A stretch of 64,000 nt of DNA from Octopus vulgaris (taxonomy: Eukaryota), in contig OX597818.1 in the NCBI GenBank assembly GCA_951406725.2, positions 7,378,001 through 7,442,000 on the forward strand, given 5' to 3'. The notes under the pieces were generated by a model that was given only the letters and a program-made list of their open reading frames with translations, was not told the origin of the DNA and did not search any database. Position numbers and translations under genes: made by a program. Of the stretch, positions 13,866 through 62,620 are shown piece by piece. The stretch's first letter is position 1; every line of letters begins with the position of its first letter.

Positions 13866-14222
13866 TATATATATTTTCTCAGTTTAACTCCTTTATATCG
13901 AGGGGATTGAATTGTCGTAGGAGAACACTTCAGTGTATTGCAGAATATGTGATACGCAGTATGAATGTGTTGACTTTTGAAAGGCATGCATCACGTAAGA
14001 AAAATAATAATAATTTAGAATGAAAGTACAGATTCAACAAATCTTTAAAGTATACCCATAATAGACATAACTGTCATTCCCGAAGAACAATGCACATATG
14101 TAAGGTTTAGGCTGTTTCGATAGTATGTAATCGGAAGGTAGACAATAACAGCGTATAAACTTATCGCAACTATTCAATATCGGAAGATCTAAGGAAATAC
14201 AACAGTGACATATATAATATAT

Positions 14223-14612
14223 AGGTGTAGCTGTGTAGTAAGAAGTTGCTTCTTAACTCTATGGTTCCATGTTCAATCCTACTGCGTGGCATGCGTGGCA
14301 TCTTGGGCAAGTGTCTTCTACTATTGCCACGGGCTGAACAAAGCCTTGTAAGTGGATTTGGTAGACGTAGACGGACACTGAAAGAAAGCCCTTCGTATAT
14401 ATTCATGTGTGTCTGTCTCTGTCTCCCACTACTGCTTGATAACCTGTGTTGTTGTGTTTATGTTCTCATAACTTAGCGTTTCAGTATAAGATATCGATAG
14501 AATAAGTACCAGTCTTAAGGAAATAGTTCTGGATCGATTCATTTAACTTAAAAAAAAAATTATAGTGGTGTCCTAGCATGACCGCATTCAAAAGACTGAA
14601 ACACGATAAAAG

Positions 14613-14613
<1 letters not shown>
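14223..14613 (+). mobile_element. tRNA-derived SINE family A, diverged full-length copy
   Basis: tRNA-like head (tagctgtgtagtaag...gttcaatcc), body gcatcttgggcaagtgtcttctactat, tail before (TA)n; homologous to 37166-37537. Confidence 0.8.
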
Positions 14614-14681
<68 letters not shown>

Positions 14682-25308: not shown

Positions 25309-25579
25309 AAAAGTCAAGGTAGAAAATGCTAAAATGATTTTATAAAAAAACATTTCAGACCGGTTTCAGTCATTGAGACTTTTTCAACTGTATGTGTGGA
25401 AAACAGTTAAATTTGGGAAAAATTAAAAGAAAAGTTTTTTAAAAGAATATTTGCATAGTGTTCAAATACAAGTGCCATTTTCCTTGTTTCTGCCTTTCTC
25501 TGTCTCTCTTGTTTACTCTGGTGGGTTCGAGGTCGGTTTGAATTCTTGGTAGGGAAGAATAATAATATATATATATATG

Positions 25580-25790
25580 AGTGTCAGTGTGTTTGTCGCC
25601 CATCATCGCTTGATATTTGATATGGGTGTTTTACGTCCTCGTAAATAAACGGTTCGGCAAAAGAGAAGGATAATAAAATAAGTACCTAAGTACTAGGCTT
25701 GCAAAGAATAAATTCTGGGTTCGATTTGTTCGAGTAAAGGTGGTGCTCCAGCATGGCCGCAGTCAAATGAGTCAAACTATAGAATAAATG
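25580..25790 (+). mobile_element. SINE family A 3' part
   Basis: cggttcggcaaaagaga...aaggtggtgctccagcatggccgcagtcaaatga. Confidence 0.75.
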
Positions 25791-25800
25791 AGTATAAGTG

Positions 25801-25846
<46 letters not shown>

Positions 25847-26766: not shown

Positions 26767-27950
26767 CACTGAACCGCAAAAGAAACGCGAGATACACGTG
26801 ACTGTGAAATATGTTCTAATTTCATTATGCTAGAAATAAATTTTGATAAATCTGATAAAGTCAGTTTCTTGGATGCACTTTGACCACAGTCTATGGGTCG
26901 TGGTCATGTGTTTTGGTAGTGGGCGGATCCAGTACATCGAAATTGTAGGACGTGACAAGTTCACCTCCATGTATTCCCTGGTTGTTCAACACATCGGTAC
27001 ATGGAGTGCATAAAGCGGTTCATAAAACCATTAGCACCCTGAAGAAAGCGCCCTCGAGTTCCACACGAGTTGTCGGCCTTGGGAGCACCTGGCTCAGACG
27101 TCTCTGGATTTCATCCAACAAGTGTTCAATTGGGTTCAAATCCAGGCTGAGAGTCGGCCACGGTATGGTTCTAATGTTGTGCTGTTGTAGGAAATCCATG
27201 ATGGCACTGATCGTGTTGGAGGGAATATTGCCCTGTTGGAACATGTGGCTATGGTGACGCGCGTAGAAGGGCACGGTGTGAGGCCTTAGGATCTGTTCAA
27301 CATAGCACCGTGCTGTGATGCCATTCCGTCTGCCTGCACCAACATTTTGGAACACATGGGGCCCAATTCTCTGCTTCAGGCCTATAGCATCCCAAACCGT
27401 AAAGCTTTGTCTAGCCCATGCTTCTCTCTCCATGACACATGCATCTCTGTAGAGTTCACTCCCCCTCCTACGCCAACCCCCCACTCTGCCATCCGAGGTG
27501 AAAAGGCAGTACCAGCTCTCGTCAGAGAGAACTATCGACCTCCATACTTGATGCCACAAAAGTCGGTGCTGTGTAGCCCACTGTTGTCGTGCCTGATGGT
27601 GGCGGGCGGTGAGGATAGGCCCTCGAGCAGGACGACGGCAACAGAGATTGGTGTCGTTGCTGATGAGTCGCTGTCTAGCGCTAATGATCTCTTGAGCAGT
27701 CACACTGATCGGTCTGAGGCGATCACAGAGGTGTTGCAAGTGGATGAAGCGGTTCTGCCTGGGCGTGGTCACCGGGTAGTGCCTTCTGCGGGCACGGTCT
27801 GCAGTACTGTTGTTGTCGTATCGTTGTTGCAGGCGATAGATGATGCTACCATGAACATTGTAAGCTTTCGCAACAACCAGGGCTCGGTGCCCTGCTTGCA
27901 ATCAGCCGATAGCTTGTTCTCTCTGATCTGCTGACAATCGGGTGATACCT
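26767..27950 (-). mobile_element. Tc1-like DNA transposon with a nearly intact but probably inactive transposase (ORF 27020-27901)
   Basis: 293 aa ORF with HTH region, IVLSDESW, FQQGNIP (second catalytic D replaced by G) and WPTLSLDLNPIEHL. TIR-like cactgaaccgcaaaagaaacgc at 26767; the other end is cut by a LINE insertion. Confidence 0.85.
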
Positions 27951-31252: not shown

Positions 31253-31311
<59 letters not shown>

Positions 31312-31313
<2 letters not shown>

Positions 31314-31714
31314 TCTCTCTTTTCTCTCTTTTACTTGTTTCAGTCATTTGACTGCGGCCATGCTGGAGCACCGCCTTTAGCCGAGCAACTCGACCCCGGG
31401 ACTTATTCTTTTGTAAGCCCAGTACTTATTCTATCGGTCTCTTTTACTGAACCGCTAAGTGACGGGGACATAAACACACCAGCATTAGTTGTCAAGCAAT
31501 GCTAGGGGGACAAACGCAGACACACAAACATATCCACACATATATATATATATATACGACAGGCTTCTTTCTGTTTCCGTCTACCAAATCCACTCACAAG
31601 GCATTGGCCGGCCTGGGGATATAGCAGAAGACACTTGCCCAAGATGCCACGCAGTGGGATTGAACCCAGAACCATGTGGTTGGTAAACAAGCTTCTTACC
31701 ACACAGCCACTCCT
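31312..31714 (-). mobile_element. tRNA-derived SINE family A, full length
   Basis: Reverse complement starts aggagtggctgtgtggtaagaagcttg...gggttcaatccc (A and B boxes); highly similar to 37166-37537. Confidence 0.9.
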
Positions 31715-31731
31715 ATATATATATATAGCCA

Positions 31732-31773
<42 letters not shown>

Positions 31774-31776
<3 letters not shown>

Positions 31777-32039
31777 AATATAAGAGAGTGGTCACTATAT
31801 TGCTCACTCTAGCACCAGTTAATCCAAAAGGTTTCAACCACGAAAATACATGCTTACCATGAAAGTCAGTACGATTGTTAGCTCACAGGACAGGGCAAAT
31901 AAAAAATAACAAAAATACAGATTATTTTGGGACAATTGTTTCGCTATTAATGAATTAAATGTAATTTTACTTACAAAAAAAATCCATTTGTAGCTCGTCA
32001 GCCAAGACTATCTGGATGAAATCCACTCAATCACACGCC
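31774..32039 (-). repeat. Inverted partial copy (266 bp) of the 536 bp monomer
   Basis: Near-exact reverse complement of 32193-32458 (one base deleted near 31888; the poly-T run is one base longer than in unit 1). Joins the forward array through a cc microhomology. Confidence 0.95.
31918..32014 (-). ncRNA. Type I hammerhead ribozyme (inverted copy)
   Basis: Reverse complement of the array hammerhead with all core nucleotides intact. Confidence 0.85.
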
Positions 32040-32217
32040 CTTATTAATTAATTATAATTATGCTGCATTTATTTCTAAATGCTGTATTTGTTTTCCGTGA
32101 AAGTTTGGCGCGCTGTTGGTTGGGGCATTTGAATTATAACGTCGGATGTAATCAATTGAACCACACGCGTATTTATCGTTATGGTAAAATCTGGCGTGTG
32201 ATTGAGTGGATTTCATC

Positions 32218-32313
32218 CAGATAGTCTTGGCTGACGAGCTACAAATGGATTTTTTTGTAAGTAAAATTACATTTAATTCATTAATAGCGAAACAATTGTC
32301 CCAAAATAATCTG
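32218..32313 (+). ncRNA. Type I hammerhead ribozyme, unit 1
   Basis: cagatagtcttgg CTGACGA gcta...tagc GAAA caattg TC ccaaaataatctg. Stem I UUGG/CCAA, internal loop, then CAGAU/AUCUG; stem II GCUA/UAGC extended; stem III palindrome ACAAUUGU; GUC cleavage after 32300. Confidence 0.9.
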
Positions 32314-32752
32314 TATTTTTGTTATTTTTTATTTGCCCTGTCCGTGTGAGCTAACAATCGTACTGACTTTCATGGTAAGCATGTATTTTCGTGGTTGAAA
32401 CCTTTTGGATTAACTGGTGCTAGAGTGAGCAATATAGTGACCACTCTCTTATATTTATTTTGTAAAAATATTATAATATGTTATAAAATATTATAATAAT
32501 CCAGGTTTCTCGAAGCACTAGGCCACTTGGTGTTGAATAAATATACTATTAAATTAGTATCTAATTCTCTCACCCTTATTAATTAATTATAATTATGCTG
32601 CATTTATTTCTAAATGCTGTATTTGTTTTCCGTGAAAGTTTGGCGCGCTGTTGGTTGGGGCATTTGAATTATAACGTCGGATGTAATCAATTGAACCACA
32701 CGCGTATTTATCGTTATGGTAAAATCTGGCGTGTGATTGAGTGGATTTCATC

Positions 32753-32848
32753 CAGATAGTCTTGGCTGACGAGCTACAAATGGATTTTTTTGTAAGTAAA
32801 ATTACATTTAATTCATTAATAGCGAAACAATTGTCCCAAAATAATCTG
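32753..32848 (+). ncRNA. Type I hammerhead ribozyme, unit 2
   Basis: Same motif; CTGACGA at 32766, cleavage after 32835. Confidence 0.9.
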
Positions 32849-33287
32849 TATTTTTGTTATTTTTTATTTGCCCTGTCCGTGTGAGCTAACAATCGTACTG
32901 ACTTTCATGGTAAGCATGTATTTTCGTGGTTGAAACCTTTTGGATTAACTGGCGCTAGAGTGAGCAATATAGTGACCACTCTCTTATATTTATTTTGTAA
33001 AAATATAATAATATGTTATAAAATATTATAATAATCCAGGTTTCTCGAAGCACTAGGCCACTTGGTGTTGAATAAATATACTATTAAATTAGTATCTAAT
33101 TCTCTCACCCTTATTAATTAATTATAATTATGCTGCATTTATTTCTAAATGCTGTATTTGTTTTCCGTGAAAGTTTGGCGCGCTGTTGGTTGGGGCATTT
33201 GAATTATAACGTCGGATGTAATCAATTGAACCACACGCGTATTTATCGTTATGGTAAAATCTGGCGTGTGATTGAGTGGATTTCATC

Positions 33288-33384
33288 CAGATAGTCTTGG
33301 CTGACGAGCTACAAATGGATTTTTTTTGTAAGTAAAATTACATTTAATTCATTAATAGCGAAACAATTGTCCCAAAATAATCTG
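33288..33384 (+). ncRNA. Type I hammerhead ribozyme, unit 3
   Basis: CTGACGA at 33301, cleavage after 33371. Confidence 0.9.
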
Positions 33385-33823
33385 TATTTTTGTTATTTTT
33401 TATTTGCCCTGTCCGTGTGAGCTAACAATCGTACTGACTTTCATGGTAAGCATGTATTTTCGTGGTTGAAACCTTTTGGATTAACTGGTGCTAGAGTGAG
33501 CAATATAGTGACCACTCTCTTATATTTATTTTGTAAAAATATTATAATATGTTATAAAATATTATAATAATCCAGGTTTCTCGAAGCACTAGGCCACTTG
33601 GTGTTGAATAAATATACTATTAAATTAGTATCTAATTCTCTCACCCTTATTAATTAATTATAATTATGCTGCATTTATTTCTAAATGCTGTATTTGTTTT
33701 CCGTGAAAGTTTGGCGCGCTGTTGGTTGGGGCATTTGAATTATAACGTCGGATGTAATCAATTGAACCACACGCGTATTTATCGTTATGGTAAAATCTGG
33801 CGTGTGATTGAGTGGATTTCATC

Positions 33824-33920
33824 CAGATAGTCTTGGCTGACGAGCTACAAATGGATTTTTTTTGTAAGTAAAATTACATTTAATTCATTAATAGCGAAAC
33901 AATTGTCCCAAAATAATCTG
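33824..33920 (+). ncRNA. Type I hammerhead ribozyme, unit 4
   Basis: CTGACGA at 33837, cleavage after 33907. Confidence 0.9.
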
Positions 33921-34359
33921 TATTTTTGTTATTTTTTATTTGCCCTGTCCGTGTGAGCTAACAATCGTACTGACTTTCATGGTAAGCATGTATTTTCGTG
34001 GTTGAAACCTTTTGGATTAACTGGTGCTAGAGTGAGCAATATAGTGACCACTCTCTTATATTTATTTTGTAAAAATATTATAATATGTTATAAAATATTA
34101 TAATAATCCAGGTTTCTCGAAGCACTAGGCCACTTGGTGTTGAATAAATATACTATTAAATTAGTATCTAATTCTCTCACCCTTATTAATTAATTATAAT
34201 TATGCTGCATTTATTTCTAAATGCTGTATTTGTTTTCCGTGAAAGTTTGGCGCGCTGTTGGTTGGGGCATTTGAATTATAACGTCGGATGTAATCAATTG
34301 AACCACACGCGTATTTATCGTTATGGTAAAATCTGGCGTGTGATTGAGTGGATTTCATC

Positions 34360-34456
34360 CAGATAGTCTTGGCTGACGAGCTACAAATGGATTTTTTTTG
34401 TAAGTAAAATTACATTTAATTCATTAATAGCGAAACAATTGTCCCAAAATAATCTG
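34360..34456 (+). ncRNA. Type I hammerhead ribozyme, unit 5
   Basis: CTGACGA at 34373, cleavage after 34443. Confidence 0.9.
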
Positions 34457-34894
34457 TATTTTTGTTATTTTTTATTTGCCCTGTCCGTGTGAGCTAACAA
34501 TCGTACTGACTTTCATGGTAAGCATGTATTTTCGTGGTTGAAACCTTTTGGATTAACTGGTGCTAGAGTGAGCAATATAGTGACCACTCTCTTATATTTA
34601 TTTTGTAAAAATATAATAATATGTTATAAAATATTATAATAATCCAGGTTTCTCGAAGCACTAGGCCACTTGGTGTTGAATAAATATACTATTAAATTAG
34701 TATCTAATTCTCTCACCTTATTAATTAATTATAATTATGCTGCATTTATTTCTAAATGCTGTATTTGTTTTCCGTGAAAGTTTGGCGCGCTGTTGGTTGG
34801 GGCATTTGAATTATAACGTCGGATGTAATCAATTGAACCACACGCGTATTTATCGTTATGGTAAAATCTGGCGTGTGATTGAGTGGATTTCATC

Positions 34895-34991
34895 CAGATA
34901 GTCTTGGCTGACGAGCTACAAATGGATTTTTTTTGTAAGTAAAATTACATTTAATTCATTAATAGCGAAACAATTGTCCCAAAATAATCTG
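34895..34991 (+). ncRNA. Type I hammerhead ribozyme, unit 6
   Basis: CTGACGA at 34908, cleavage after 34978. Confidence 0.9.
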
Positions 34992-35430
34992 TATTTTTGT
35001 TATTTTTTATTTGCCCTGTCCGTGTGAGCTAACAATCGTACTGACTTTCATGGTAAGCATGTATTTTCGTGGTTGAAACCTTTTGGATTAACTGGTGCTA
35101 GAGTGAGCAATATAGTGACCACTCTCTTATATTTATTTTGTAAAAATATTATAATATGTTATAAAATATTATAATAATCCAGGTTTCTCGAAGCACTAGG
35201 CCACTTGGTGTTGAATAAATATACTATTAAATTAGTATCTAATTCTCTCACCCTTATTAATTAATTATAATTATGCTGCATTTATTTCTAAATGCTGTAT
35301 TTGTTTTCCGTGAAAGTTTGGCGCGCTGTTGGTTGGGGCATTTGAATTATAACGTCGGATGTAATCAATTGAACCACACGCGTATTTATCGTTATGGTAA
35401 AATCTGGCGTGTGATTGAGTGGATTTCATC

Positions 35431-35527
35431 CAGATAGTCTTGGCTGACGAGCTACAAATGGATTTTTTTTGTAAGTAAAATTACATTTAATTCATTAATA
35501 GCGAAACAATTGTCCCAAAATAATCTG
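35431..35527 (+). ncRNA. Type I hammerhead ribozyme, unit 7
   Basis: CTGACGA at 35444, cleavage after 35514. Confidence 0.9.
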
Positions 35528-35966
35528 TATTTTTGTTATTTTTTATTTGCCCTGTCCGTGTGAGCTAACAATCGTACTGACTTTCATGGTAAGCATGTAT
35601 TTTCGTGGTTGAAACCTTTTGGATTAACTGGTGCTAGAGTGAGCAATATAGTGACCACTCTCTTATATTTATTTTGTAAAAATATTATAATATGTTATAA
35701 AATATTATAATAATCCAGGTTTCTCGAAGCACTAGGCCACTTGGTGTTGAATAAATATACTATTAAATTAGTATCTAATTCTCTCACCCTTATTAATTAA
35801 TTATAATTATGCTGCATTTATTTCTAAATGCTGTATTTGTTTTCCGTGAAAGTTTGGCGCGCTGTTGGTTGGGGCATTTGAATTATAACGTCGGATGTAA
35901 TCAATTGAACCACACGCGTATTTATCGTTATGGTAAAATCTGGCGTGTGATTGAGTGGATTTCATC

Positions 35967-36063
35967 CAGATAGTCTTGGCTGACGAGCTACAAATGGATT
36001 TTTTTTGTAAGTAAAATTACATTTAATTCATTAATAGCGAAACAATTGTCCCAAAATAATCTG
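35967..36063 (+). ncRNA. Type I hammerhead ribozyme, unit 8
   Basis: CTGACGA at 35980, cleavage after 36050. Confidence 0.9.
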
Positions 36064-36502
36064 TATTTTTGTTATTTTTTATTTGCCCTGTCCGTGTGAG
36101 CTAACAATCGTACTGACTTTCATGGTAAGCATGTATTTTCGTGGTTGAAACCTTTTGGATTAACTGGTGCTAGAGTGAGCAATATAGTGACCACTCTCTT
36201 ATATTTATTTTGTAAAAATATTATAATATGTTATAAAATATTATAATAATCCAGGTTTCTCGAAGCACTAGGCCACTTGGTGTTGAATAAATATACTATT
36301 AAATTAGTATCTAATTCTCTCACCCTTATTAATTAATTATAATTATGCTGCATTTATTTCTAAATGCTGTATTTGTTTTCCGTGAAAGTTTGGCGCGCTG
36401 TTGGTTGGGGCATTTGAATTATAACGTCGGATGTAATCAATTGAACCACACGCGTATTTATCGTTATGGTAAAATCTGGCGTGTGATTGAGTGGATTTCA
36501 TC

Positions 36503-36599
36503 CAGATAGTCTTGGCTGACGAGCTACAAATGGATTTTTTTTGTAAGTAAAATTACATTTAATTCATTAATAGCGAAACAATTGTCCCAAAATAATCTG
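36503..36599 (+). ncRNA. Type I hammerhead ribozyme, unit 9
   Basis: CTGACGA at 36516, cleavage after 36586. Confidence 0.9.
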
Positions 36600-36868
36600 T
36601 ATTTTTGTTATTTTTTATTTGCCCTGTCCGTGTGAGCTAACAATCGTACTGATTTTCATGGTAAGCATGTATTTTCGTGGTTGAAACCTTTTGGATTAAC
36701 TGGTGCTAGAGTGAGCAATATAGTGACCACTCTCTTATATTTATTTTGTAAAAATATTATAATATGTTATAAAATATTATAATAATCCAGGTTTCTCGAA
36801 GCACTAGGCCACTTGGTGTTGAATAAATATACTATTAAATTAGTATCTAATTCTCTCACCCTTATTAA

Positions 36869-36919
<51 letters not shown>

Positions 36920-37151
36920 GCGGCAAGCTGGCAGACACGTCGTTAGCGCGCCGGGCGAAATGCTTAGCGGTATTTCGTCTGTCGTTACGTTCTGAGTTCA
37001 AATTCCACCGAGGTCAACTTTGCCTTTCATCCTTTTGGGGTCGATAAATAAAGTACCAGCTTCGCACAGGGGGTGATATAATAGACTCAATCCCTTCGTC
37101 TGTCCTTGTTTGTCCCCTCTATGTTTAGCCCCTTGTGGGCAGTAAAGAAAT
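36920..37151 (+). mobile_element. SINE family B
   Basis: Homologous to 16045-16278 along its length. Confidence 0.85.
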
Positions 37152-37165
37152 ATATATATATTATA

Positions 37166-37535
37166 GGCGCAGGAGTGGCTGTGTGGTAAGTAGCTTGCTA
37201 ACCAACCACACGGTTGCGGGTTCAGTCCCACTGCGTGGCATCTTGGGCAAGTGTCTTCTGCTATAGCTCCGGGCCGACCAATGCCTTGTGAGTGGATTTG
37301 GTAGACGGAAACTGAAAGAAGCCTGTCGTATATATGTATATATATATATGTATGCGTGTGTTTGTGTGTCTGTGTTTGTCCCCCTAGCATTGCTTGACAA
37401 CCGATGCTGGTGTATTTAGGTCCCCGTCACATAGCGGTTCGGCAAAAAGAGACCGATAGAATAAGTACTAAAAGGTGGTGCTCCAGCATGGCCGCAGTCG
37501 GGTGACTGAAACAAGTGAAAGAGAGAGAGTAAAGA

Positions 37536-37537
<2 letters not shown>
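37166..37537 (+). mobile_element. tRNA-derived SINE family A, full length
   Basis: ggcgcaggagtggctgtgtggtaag (A box)...gggttcagtccc (B box)...ccagcatggccgcagtc tail before (TA)n. Confidence 0.9.
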
Positions 37538-37579
<42 letters not shown>

Positions 37580-38552: not shown

Positions 38553-38845
38553 GGGCACGTGGTTTAGTGGCTAGAATATTCGGTTCACGATCGTAAGGTT
38601 CTGATTTTTCGATTCATGGCGGCGCGTTGTGGCCTTGAGCAAGAAACTTTATTTCACGTTGCTCTAATCCAGTCAGTTGAAAAAGATGAGTTGTACATAT
38701 AATTCAAATGGCCAGCCTTGTCACACTCTGTGTCACGTTGTATCTCTATGAGAACTACGTTAACGGTATGCGCACCTGTGAAGTTCTCAGCCACTTGCAT
38801 GTTAATTTCAGAAGCATGCTATTCGGTTGATCGTCTCATTTGGAA
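38553..38845 (+). mobile_element. tRNA-derived SINE family C (older)
   Basis: cgtggtttagtggctaga head, ccttgagcaagaaactttatttcacgtt core; second copy at 62317-62620. Confidence 0.75.
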
Positions 38846-61779: not shown

Positions 61780-62316
61780 GTTATTATTATTATTATTATT
61801 ATATATTTATTTATTTATTTATATATATTTTGATTACTCAGTATAGAATTTTAAAAGTTTTTTCATAGATAAATATGTATAGCGCCATTTCATTCATGAC
61901 ATAGTAAGGAATAAATGAATTAAACTAAATCAAAGATTGTACGAAGCGAAGCATTTCTGAAAGATGAGATGTGAAATCTCATCCATTTGAAGAATAATCA
62001 CAACTCTTCAAACGTGGGAACATTTTGAATAGAATTGTTAATGGTGATGCATGTTAAATTTCAAGAGGAAGAGGGGGGAATTTTACATTTGTAGATGTTC
62101 AGTTGACTGTGTTGCTACTCCGGTATTAATACTGATATCAATGAGCATAATGATCATCATCGTAATAGATGCTATTATAAGGGTATTGTAGATGATGGTA
62201 GCAACGGCGATGGTGACGGCAAGAACGACAACATCAATGATACCAATGATGGTGATGAAGACAACAACAATATGTCTGACACACAATTATTACACATACC
62301 CTTGGGATCAAGTGAA

Positions 62317-62620
62317 GGTGCGTAGCTTAGTGGCTAGAGTGTTCGACTCACGATTGTAAGGTCCTGAATTCGAATCTCGGTGGTGCTTTGTGTCCCTTGA
62401 GCAAGACACATTATTTCACGTTACTCCAGTTCACTCAGCTGGCAAAAATGGGTAGTACCTGCATTTCATAGGGTCATCTTTGTCATATATTGTGCTACGC
62501 TGAGTCATTCTAAGAATAACGTTAAGGGTATGCGCGCTGTGGTGGTGGTGTAAGGGTCTTAGCCGCTTGCATGTTAATTTCACAACCAACTAGTATCCTT
62601 GTCGTCGTAACCGACTGAGT
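62317..62620 (+). mobile_element. tRNA-derived SINE family C
   Basis: Homologous to 38553-38845 (gtagcttagtggctaga..ttcgaatc..ccttgagcaagacacattatttcacgtt..ttgcatgttaattt). Confidence 0.75.

What the first reader, a model, noticed from the sequence alone, without database searches (positions are those of the whole stretch)
32218..32313. Atypical hammerhead fold: ~50 nt extended stem II with a palindromic minimal stem III
Seen: stem II is GCUA-CA-AAUGGAUU-(U)n-UGUAA-GUAAAA-UUACA-UUU-AAUUCAUU-AA-UAGC, three stacked helices instead of a short hairpin. Stem III is the self-complementary ACAAUUGU, which is poor as a hairpin but a perfect duplex between two units. Stem I has an internal loop (AGUC/AAUA). 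Established: weak palindromic stem III is typical of hammerheads that act as dimers. Inference: cleavage would require two neighbouring units, coupling processing to multimeric transcripts. The stem I tertiary contact may use an internal loop of stem II.
Basis: partly seen in the sequence, partly recalled or inferred. Interest (0 to 1): 0.7.

Follow-up and report, generated by a model that had tools for sequence, protein, structure and literature searches.

The report
Long-armed hammerhead in a tandem retrozyme
This predicted self-cutting "hammerhead" RNA motif sits in every unit of a 536-base jumping repeat in an octopus-like genome; its pairing-in-twos feature is already known, but its second arm is several times longer than usual, a form that outnumbers ordinary hammerheads about twelve to one here and that standard RNA-family scans miss.

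Summary
The fold is real: an intact type I hammerhead core, a 51-nt stem II (z -4.6), and a 2-bp stem III capped by palindromic AAUU. It recurs in nine tandem 535-536-bp units plus an inverted partial copy, both ends in (TA)n. The family has 2,048 intact-core copies. 19 of 24 insertions are two-armed, and 13 of 15 end at two fixed sites, the Penelope-like 'tail' signature. So this is a non-LTR retrozyme.

The palindromic stem III and dimer cleavage are published, and a short-stem retrozyme in the same genome has them too. Dimer cleavage is favoured by calculation, but 'required' is overstated.

What looks new is stem II. Across five subfamilies (50-80% identical) the basal helix, a 2x2 internal loop (usually CA or CG / AA), four further base pairs and U1.7 are kept, with compensatory changes. 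The distal part varies (stem II 30-52 nt). Long-stem hammerheads outnumber short ones 8,014 to 642, and Rfam misses this one. A 5'-splice-site-like GURAGU is kept in the extension; its role is untested.

Verdict: new structural variant of a known kind.

The parts
32218..32313 (+). Type I hammerhead, unit 1 (the finding); predicted cleavage after C32300 (GUC)
32231..32237 (+). Core C3-A9 (CUGACGA); N7 varies among C/A/G in the family
32238..32288 (+). Extended stem II, 51 nt: IIa GCUA/UAGC, 2x2 loop CA (32242-43) / AA (32283-84), IIb 32244-51/32275-82, U-rich loop, IIc hairpin 32256-32271
32257..32262 (+). GUAAGU, 5'-splice-site-like hexamer in distal stem II; GURAGU in all five subfamily representatives; function untested
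32289..32300 (+). GAAA, palindromic stem III ACAAUUGU (2 bp + AAUU) and C17
32301..32313 (+). 3' strand of stem I with unpaired U1.7 at 32307
32040..36877 (+). Long arm of the insertion: nine head-to-tail 535-536-bp units, 32% GC, differing at only 5 columns; hammerheads start at 32218, 32753, 33288, 33824, 34360, 34895, 35431, 35967, 36503
31774..32039 (-). Short inverted, 5'-truncated arm with a complete hammerhead (32014-31918), ending at fixed site A
32448..32463 (+). Fixed end site A within the unit (about unit position 420), where one arm runs into (TA)n; inferred reverse-transcription start
32567..32591 (+). Fixed end site B (unit position 17 of the next unit), about 130 nt downstream of site A; the array ends at its last copy, 36877
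31714..31773 (.). Left (TA)n target flank
36878..36919 (.). Right (TA)n target flank
32104..32133 (+). Two conserved upstream blocks (TTTgGCGcGC; CAtTTGAA), possible internal promoter elements; unassigned

Best explanation
This is a type I hammerhead motif with an intact core in each 536-base unit of a non-coding tandem repeat that is likely a non-autonomous passenger of Penelope-like elements (a non-LTR retrozyme), and it is predicted to cut multimeric transcripts into unit-length RNAs, best as a two-unit 'double hammerhead'. Shown: the core, the fold, the repeat architecture, the two fixed ends in (TA)n and the compensatory changes. Inferred steps: (1) read-through Pol II transcription gives multimers. 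(2) The spacer's own fold brings the 3' stem I strand of unit n onto the 5' strand of unit n+1, so two ACAAUUGU form an 8-bp helix III and cleavage follows GUC; a lone unit probably cleaves more slowly, which would protect the circle. (3) The long stem II is an insertion into loop 2 that leaves a 4-bp basal helix and a 2x2 internal loop ending in A, so the U1.7-loop 2 contact would survive and the distal part would point away from the core. (4) Monomers are ligated to circles. (5) A Penelope-type RT-endonuclease nicks (TA)n and primes both target strands at two internal RNA sites about 130 nt apart, rolling round the template to give divergent tandem arms.
For: Fold. Copy number: 2,048 against 0 control. 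Architecture: 19 of 24 distinct insertions two-armed; of 15 with both ends in view, 13 have one end at site A and one at site B (window right end). The same two sites recur in subfamilies 50-80% identical. This matches the PLE inverted 5'-truncated copy and 'tail' (PMC8557442) and the two internal RT starts with both strands extended (PMC11167929). Intact TA-flanked RT + C-terminal GIY-YIG elements with a 781-aa frame exist in the genome. Covariation in 17 hand-anchored representatives: pair 10.2 CG/GC 17 of 17 paired; 10.3 UA/CG 15 of 17; IIb1-4 paired in 17, 17, 16 and 16 of 17, with UA/CG and GC/AU swaps; U1.7 in 17 of 17; 3' loop A in 16 of 17. Helix I: 6 of 6 pairs with two-sided changes, 0 of 500 shuffles reach the score (20 rows). 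Loop III palindromic in 15 of 21 clusters of long-stem hammerheads, with different sequences. Circular monomer z -7.6, 65% paired, 40 shuffles. The U1.7-terminal loop 2 A Hoogsteen pair is described in PMC11875169.
Against: No cleavage, circle or expression was shown here. The shuffles ignore relatedness: there are about five subfamilies, so each compensatory change is one or two events. I anchored the stem II alignment by hand because MAFFT misregistered it. The free two-unit ensemble (-185.0) still lies 7 kcal/mol below the constrained double hammerhead (-177.9). No autonomous element sharing the unit's sequence was found. The largest other long-stem family has U at 1.6 and mostly A at 1.7. 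PMC11875169 notes that extra non-terminal loops on stem II can inhibit trans-acting hammerheads and questions whether U1.7 is essential. Eight of nine Xenopus retrozyme dimers did not cleave in vitro (10.64898/2026.07.22.740005).
Confidence: 0.75

Rival explanations
1. Obligate dimer: a single unit is essentially inactive, and only two neighbouring units can cleave.
For: Active monomer ensemble is 5.6 kcal/mol above the free ensemble, P(15.1-16.1)=0.0002; double hammerhead 8.3 kcal/mol better than two active monomers; AAUU in 17 of 17 distinct members of the window's cluster; subfamilies with 2-nt loops (UA, CG) can hardly close helix III alone.
Against: Much of the gap comes from G5-A6-C7 mispairing with GUC; natural copies with A or G at N7 have gaps of only 2.3-3.0 kcal/mol. 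Invertebrate 2-bp + tetraloop hammerheads cleave as monomers (PMC7229834; PMC7761336). A homologous subfamily has a non-palindromic 5-nt insert giving a 3-bp helix III with the same long stem II.
Confidence: 0.3
2. The extension is a selected platform that presents a U1-binding 5' splice site (GURAGU) inside the ribozyme. Either splicing removes the ribozyme's 3' half (splice-or-cleave switch), or U1 binding suppresses premature polyadenylation so that multimers are made.
For: GURAGU is the only 6-column window of stem II with at least 5 invariant columns across five subfamilies, against 74 of 273 invariant columns outside the ribozyme. It is kept in a stem-loop junction, a tetraloop and a 30-nt stem. 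Four of the five subfamilies were first seen in searches that did not ask for it. Branch-like CURAY with pyrimidines and AG lies downstream in sister subfamilies. The unit holds AATAAA at 32536. PLE repeats carry introns that overlap the hammerhead in D. virilis (PMC4209133).
Against: demanded GTRAG and filtered on it, so part of the conservation is ascertainment. In three subfamilies GUAA is simply a GNRA tetraloop. Most other long-stem clusters lack GTRAG (for example 0 of 22, 0 of 10, 0 of 8). The nearest AG is absent in L114, L101, L132 and L133. In the window's family the motif is half buried in a hairpin.
Confidence: 0.17
3. The extension is a tolerated insertion with no job, and the ribozyme is slow, protein-dependent or dispensable for transposition.
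For: Distal stem II varies in length (30-52 nt) and register, and IIb5 is paired in only 9 of 17. A short-stem 353-bp family spreads with the same two-armed TA architecture. The anole PLE hammerhead needs protein and is not needed for insertion in vitro (PMC11167929).
Against: Long stems dominate (8,014 against 642) across about 21 stem II sequence clusters; IIb1-4 stay paired with compensatory changes; core and helix I are under pairing selection.
Confidence: 0.3
4. Ordinary satellite DNA amplified by unequal crossing-over, with a chance or dead hammerhead.
For: The units are 99.6-100% identical and tandem.
Against: Dispersed on many chromosomes, variable inversion junctions, two fixed ends in (TA)n, covarying ribozyme helices.
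Confidence: 0.02

Closest known systems
Metazoan non-LTR retrozymes (Cervera and de la Pena 2020, PMC7229834; Li, Clavereau and Pollet 2026, 10.64898/2026.07.22.740005)
   Same: Non-coding, low-GC tandem unit with one canonical-type type I hammerhead per unit (6-bp helix I, 4-bp basal helix II, 2-bp helix III with palindromic tetraloop); self-paired predicted circle; co-occurs with autonomous PLEs.
   Different: Helix II is 51 nt with internal loops rather than a 4-bp hairpin; the unit is 536 bp (170-400 nt in the 2020 paper, within the 51-972 bp range of the 2026 preprint); two-armed insertions into (TA)n with two fixed ends were not described in the parts of those papers I read.
Penelope-like element repeats and their minimal hammerheads (PMC4209133; PMC8557442; PMC11167929)
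   Same: Inverted 5'-truncated arm, partial tandems, 'tail' at one end, (TA)n/AT-rich targets, palindromic helix III, dimer model.
   Different: No ORF; tail about 130 nt rather than 30-40; the hammerhead is not minimal (no extra base before 10.1, helix III present, helix II far beyond 7-8 bp).
Newt/axolotl satellite and ASBVd double hammerheads (as cited in PMC7229834, PMC3088659)
   Same: Weak helix III completed by pairing two palindromes.
   Different: Two base pairs rather than one (Amex2-like, not Amex1-like); long helix II.
353-bp short-stem retrozyme of the same genome (L236, L237, L239)
   Same: U1.7, palindromic tetraloop III (UCGA), two-armed TA-flanked tandem insertions.
   Different: Hairpin loop 2 UCAAUA on a 4-bp stem; serves as the natural 'truncated stem II' comparison.

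Membership tests
Type I hammerhead ribozyme | Core CUGANGA ... GAAA ... UH | tested here: met
   CUGACGA, GAAA, GUC; core invariant apart from N7 and H17 in 20 homologues
Type I hammerhead ribozyme | G10.1-C11.1, A15.1-U16.1 and three helices with open stem I | tested here: met
   GC 20 of 20, AU 20 of 20, helix I 89% paired with two-sided changes
Type I hammerhead ribozyme | Loop 1-loop 2 tertiary contact | tested here: inconclusive
   U1.7 17 of 17 and 3' loop A 16 of 17 kept; the contact itself cannot be observed here
Type I hammerhead ribozyme | Match to an Rfam hammerhead model | tested here: not met
   No hammerhead hit at gathering score in the window or at E up to 10 in the unit; probably due to the long stem II (inference)
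Type I hammerhead ribozyme | Site-specific self-cleavage | not testable with these tools
   Only contigs were available
Non-LTR retrozyme | Tandem non-coding units, each with a type I hammerhead, GC under 50% | tested here: met
   Nine units, 32% GC, no frame of 120 aa or more in the array
Non-LTR retrozyme | Dispersed multi-copy mobile family without LTR structure | tested here: met
   2,048 copies, many chromosomes
Non-LTR retrozyme | Highly self-paired predicted circle | tested here: met
   z -7.6, 65% paired
Non-LTR retrozyme | Accumulates as linear and circular monomer RNA | not testable with these tools
   No run on record as RNA; contigs cannot show circles
Non-autonomous Penelope-like element | Inverted 5'-truncated arm and one-ended tail from two RT starts | tested here: met
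   19 of 24 two-armed; 13 of 15 with one A end and one B end
Non-autonomous Penelope-like element | Microsatellite or AT-rich target | tested here: met
   Arm ends run into (TA)n in nearly all loci
Non-autonomous Penelope-like element | Sequence shared with the terminal repeat of an autonomous PLE | tested here: inconclusive
   No match to 30 GIY-YIG loci or 10 longer PLE loci; only 30 of 148 scored and 6,136 candidate loci were examined
PLE minimal hammerhead | Helix III absent or nearly so, short helix I, extra base before 10.1 | tested here: not met
   6-bp helix I, no extra base, 2-bp helix III (definition PMC4209133)

The most novel reading that the evidence does not exclude
Octopus retrozymes use a hammerhead class in which loop 2 has become a 2x2 internal loop that still docks on stem I, while the helix beyond it is a cargo arm. 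In this clade the arm carries a U1-binding 5' splice site, so the ribozyme is complete only in unspliced RNA: a splice-or-cleave (or U1 read-through) switch that could explain why Penelope-like elements keep their introns through retrotransposition.
Probability: 0.15. Interest if true: 0.75.

Novelty: new variant of a known kind. Interest (0 to 1): 0.42.

Why it matters
(1) If these motifs cleave, the commonest hammerhead form in this genome (8,014 long against 642 short for the same pattern) is invisible to Rfam and to size-limited descriptors. Craig et al. used a 7-17-nt spacer and noted eight 'half cores' with the second half 35-50 nt away, so 'hammerhead-less' calls may need a second look. 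(2) It would be a natural case of the loop 1-loop 2 contact made through an internal loop, a design that lets cargo be hung on stem II. (3) The two fixed, TA-primed arm ends are direct anatomical evidence that a retrozyme is mobilised by Penelope-type machinery; the papers I read argue this from co-occurrence, shared features and sequence similarity to PLE repeats. The young family, nearby short-stem family and intact 781-aa PLE make the question testable in vitro. The dimer feature itself adds nothing new.

Tried and rejected
Rfam: no hammerhead hit.

Expression: no RNA holder listed (20 of 22 rows hold the stretch, none on record as RNA, all contigs). Contigs of four runs guessed to be RNA cover all 30 bins of the unit and show only a 535-base go-back joint, which genomic tandems also give. 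The A>G excess in run X2 cannot be told from alleles. Depth is far higher on this unit than on the older L177 subfamily in run X9, but contig depth ranks nothing, so I do not use it.

Splicing: no joint from the GURAGU site in four runs on the window's unit or four on L177 (only two of these cover the site, thinly). Contigs show presence, not absence, so this is not counted. One loose end at 32258 in X2 had no match in G000.

Autonomous partner: the young 781-aa RT-GIY-YIG family has different hammerhead-like motifs and no similarity to the unit. L175/L181 holds a second PLE with the 3' half of an AAUU hammerhead about 160 nt upstream of ORF1, not homologous to the unit; the unit copy beside it is a separate insertion. 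L218 joins a sister retrozyme to PLE ORF1 only through a TA run. Two-armed elements of 2.5-3.9 kb with long-stem hammerheads (L169-L173) had no PLE frame.

Short-loop ancestor: the GGCAACGGAAAUUGCC family resembles one subfamily at the start of stem II, but no wider homology was visible; that output was partly cut.

Pol III promoter: A- and B-box look-alikes are in the wrong order and a U7-8 run lies in stem II; rejected by inspection.

Lunse et al. 2017 was not held; I saw only its title in a reference list.

Full report
Observation. Stem II (32238-32288) folds into three helices at -12.6 kcal/mol, z -4.57, with 0 of 200 shuffles as stable. In the 111-nt monomer the minimum-energy fold pairs core G5-A6-C7 with GUC instead of forming helix III: -24.6 against -17.7 for the active form, and P(A15.1-U16.1) is 0.0002. 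The octamer costs +2.4 as a hairpin and gives -6.4 as a self-duplex. Rfam reports no hammerhead, at gathering score over the window or at E up to 10 over the unit.

Context. The motif lies in nine tandem units of 535-536 bp (32040-36877, 32% GC, five variable columns) preceded by an inverted partial copy (31774-32039) with its own complete hammerhead; both ends run into (TA)n. No frame of 120 aa or more overlaps the array. The genome has 2.8 Gb in 227 contigs. A family-specific pattern finds 2,048 copies against 0 for the control.

Insertion anatomy. I examined 26 loci representing 24 distinct insertions (the best-identity hits with overlaps removed, plus family members). 19 of 24 have two divergent arms. 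Of 15 with both ends in view, 13 have one arm ending at unit position 15-17 and the other near position 420 (BLAST ends of 433-462 overshoot into the TA run); two have one such end and one odd end (397, 504). Sister subfamilies end at the homologous two sites. Penelope-like elements show an inverted 5'-truncated copy, a one-ended tail and (TA)n bias (PMC8557442, passages; preprint passages). The anole element primes at two internal RNA sites and extends both strands, the tail being the stretch between them (PMC11167929, parts 1-2 of 4). So mobilisation by Penelope-type protein is a strong inference. A young family with RT, a CX4CX2C linker and C-terminal GIY-YIG in a 781-aa frame, flanked by (TA)n, is present. 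It shares no sequence with the unit, so the partner is not identified.

Stem II across homologues. Within the family, the changes in the 100 listed of 2,048 matches are mostly one-sided wobble changes or fall in loops (by inspection). Diverged subfamilies were found by pattern and confirmed as homologues over the unit or its ribozyme-bearing part (59-75% BLAST identity; alignment; five representatives 50-80% identical). In 17 hand-anchored representatives: 10.1 GC 17 of 17; 10.2 CG or GC 17 of 17; 10.3 UA or CG 15 of 17; a 2x2 loop, C-R on the 5' side in 15 and AA on the 3' side in 15; IIb1-4 paired in 17, 17, 16 and 16 with UA/CG and GC/AU swaps (IIb3-4: 32 of 34 paired, 2 of 5,000 shuffles as high); IIb5 only 9 of 17; stem II 30-52 nt; U1.7 and G2.7 in all 17. 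Helix I is a canonical six pairs, all six with two-sided changes (20 rows, 0 of 500 shuffles). The shuffles ignore descent and only about five subfamilies are independent. The conserved unit is therefore basal helix + 2x2 loop + four pairs, not three stacked helices. The crystal-derived contact pairs U1.7 with the last A of loop 2 (PMC11875169, passages). Here an A sits in that place, and the same genome's short-stem family has loop UCAAUA with U1.7. I infer an insertion into loop 2 that keeps the contact. Against this, the 22-member GAAG cluster has U at 1.6 and A at 1.7 in 21 of 22, and U1.7 is the majority in 15 of 21 clusters.

How common. The pattern CUGANGAG-N30-60-CGAAAC-NNNN-GUC gives 8,014 matches (control 14); the same pattern with N6-24 gives 642 (control 8). 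A further pattern with other stem bases and any H gives 2,079 (control 17; overlaps in part). The 120 distinct long-stem motifs in my fetched loci, a biased sample, form 21 clusters, 15 with a Watson-Crick palindromic loop III of differing sequence.

Dimer question. In the natural two-unit stretch the double hammerhead is fully nested, the spacer folding as in the circle; constrained ensembles are -177.9 (double) against -169.6 (two active monomers), free -185.0, with cross-unit P 0.20. The circular monomer is 65% paired, z -7.6 over 40 shuffles. But natural copies with A or G at N7 have monomer gaps of 2.3-3.0 rather than 5.6 kcal/mol, and one subfamily has a non-palindromic 3-bp helix III. 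Published invertebrate monomers cleave well, and axolotl Amex2 with 2 bp + tetraloop cuts 22% as a monomer and much better as a dimer (PMC7229834, parts 2-4 of 6 and passages). Palindromic weak helix III and the dimer model are standard (PMC4209133, parts 1-2 of 4; PMC3088659, passages; PMC7761336, passages). Dimer-enhanced is likely; dimer-only is not shown.

The GURAGU lead. Distal stem II holds GUAAGU (32257-32262), GUGAGU in some copies. It is the only 6-column window of stem II with at least five invariant columns in five subfamilies and survives in different folds. The donor, branch-point and GNRA labels are recalled consensus motifs. Ascertainment, the tetraloop explanation and its absence from most other long-stem clusters keep this at about 0.15. 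The available contigs could not test it (see Tried and rejected).

Novelty. The class is known: non-LTR retrozymes as non-autonomous PLE derivatives (PMC7229834; 10.64898/2026.07.22.740005, parts 1-3 of 5). I found no description of a 50-nt multi-helix stem II in animal type I hammerheads, nor of cephalopod retrozymes, in seven library searches and the texts read. There 'long helix II' means 6-8 bp (PMC4209133; PMC13725137, passages). Craig et al. list eight Naiad 'half cores' with the second half 35-50 nt away, which may be such motifs. I did not read any supplements (hammerhead figures of PMC7229834, file S1 of PMC8557442), Lunse 2017 was not held, and most subscription papers are not searched, so a prior description is possible. 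Earlier AI notes report similar long-stem motifs; they are leads, not support.

Verdict. Real feature; a non-LTR retrozyme hammerhead; the palindrome and dimer part is known; the extended stem II with a conserved internal loop is a new variant that dominates this genome. Interest 0.42.

Noticed in passing
window 32104-32133 (each unit): Two blocks conserved across five subfamilies, TTTgGCGcGC and CAtTTGAA, resemble an E2F site and a CHR element (recalled motifs); sister subfamilies also have an initiator-like TTAGTT about 30 nt before the ribozyme. A possible cell-cycle or germline Pol II promoter, although retrozymes are said to lack promoters (PMC7761336).
   Followed up: partly
L236:1274-3076, L237, L239: A 353-bp retrozyme family with a canonical short stem II (loop UCAAUA), palindromic UCGA loop III and the same two-armed (TA)n insertions; it accounts for most of the 100 listed short-stem matches.
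   Followed up: partly
L095:244-5460 (also L091-L094, L097-L100): Young Penelope-like family with an upstream ORF and a 781-aa RT + GIY-YIG frame, TA-flanked; a hammerhead-like motif with a U3-A8 core near its 3' end and short tandem repeats with UUGAUGA cores in its 3' region.
   Followed up: partly
L175:3321-6457 and L198, L186, L199: Second PLE (54% identical to the first) with a hammerhead 3' half upstream of ORF1; decayed relatives suggest a stem II of about 85-100 nt.
   Followed up: partly
L169-L173: Two-armed elements of 2.5-3.9 kb with long-stem hammerheads about 120 bp from each end and no detected PLE frame; loop III switches between GAUC and AAUU within this family.
   Followed up: partly
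L218:1490-1540: A sister retrozyme arm is joined through a TA run to PLE ORF1 at a place where intact ORF1 has no TA run; TA repeats may be added at insertion rather than pre-existing, or this is a nested insertion.
   Followed up: no
window 27020-27901 (-): Decayed Tc1/mariner-type transposase frame (weak DDE_3 and HTH_Tnp_Tc3_2 hits below cut-off).
   Followed up: partly
window 62316-62388 (+); related stretch 38558-38816: tRNA-like head just over the Rfam cut-off (30.7 bits) inside a repeat present twice in the window, probably a tRNA-derived SINE.
   Followed up: no
window 31283-31727 (-) and 37151-37566 (+): Two 81% identical copies of a common short repeat flank the insertion in opposite orientation; further copies at 14210-14675 and 25571-25831.
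   Followed up: no
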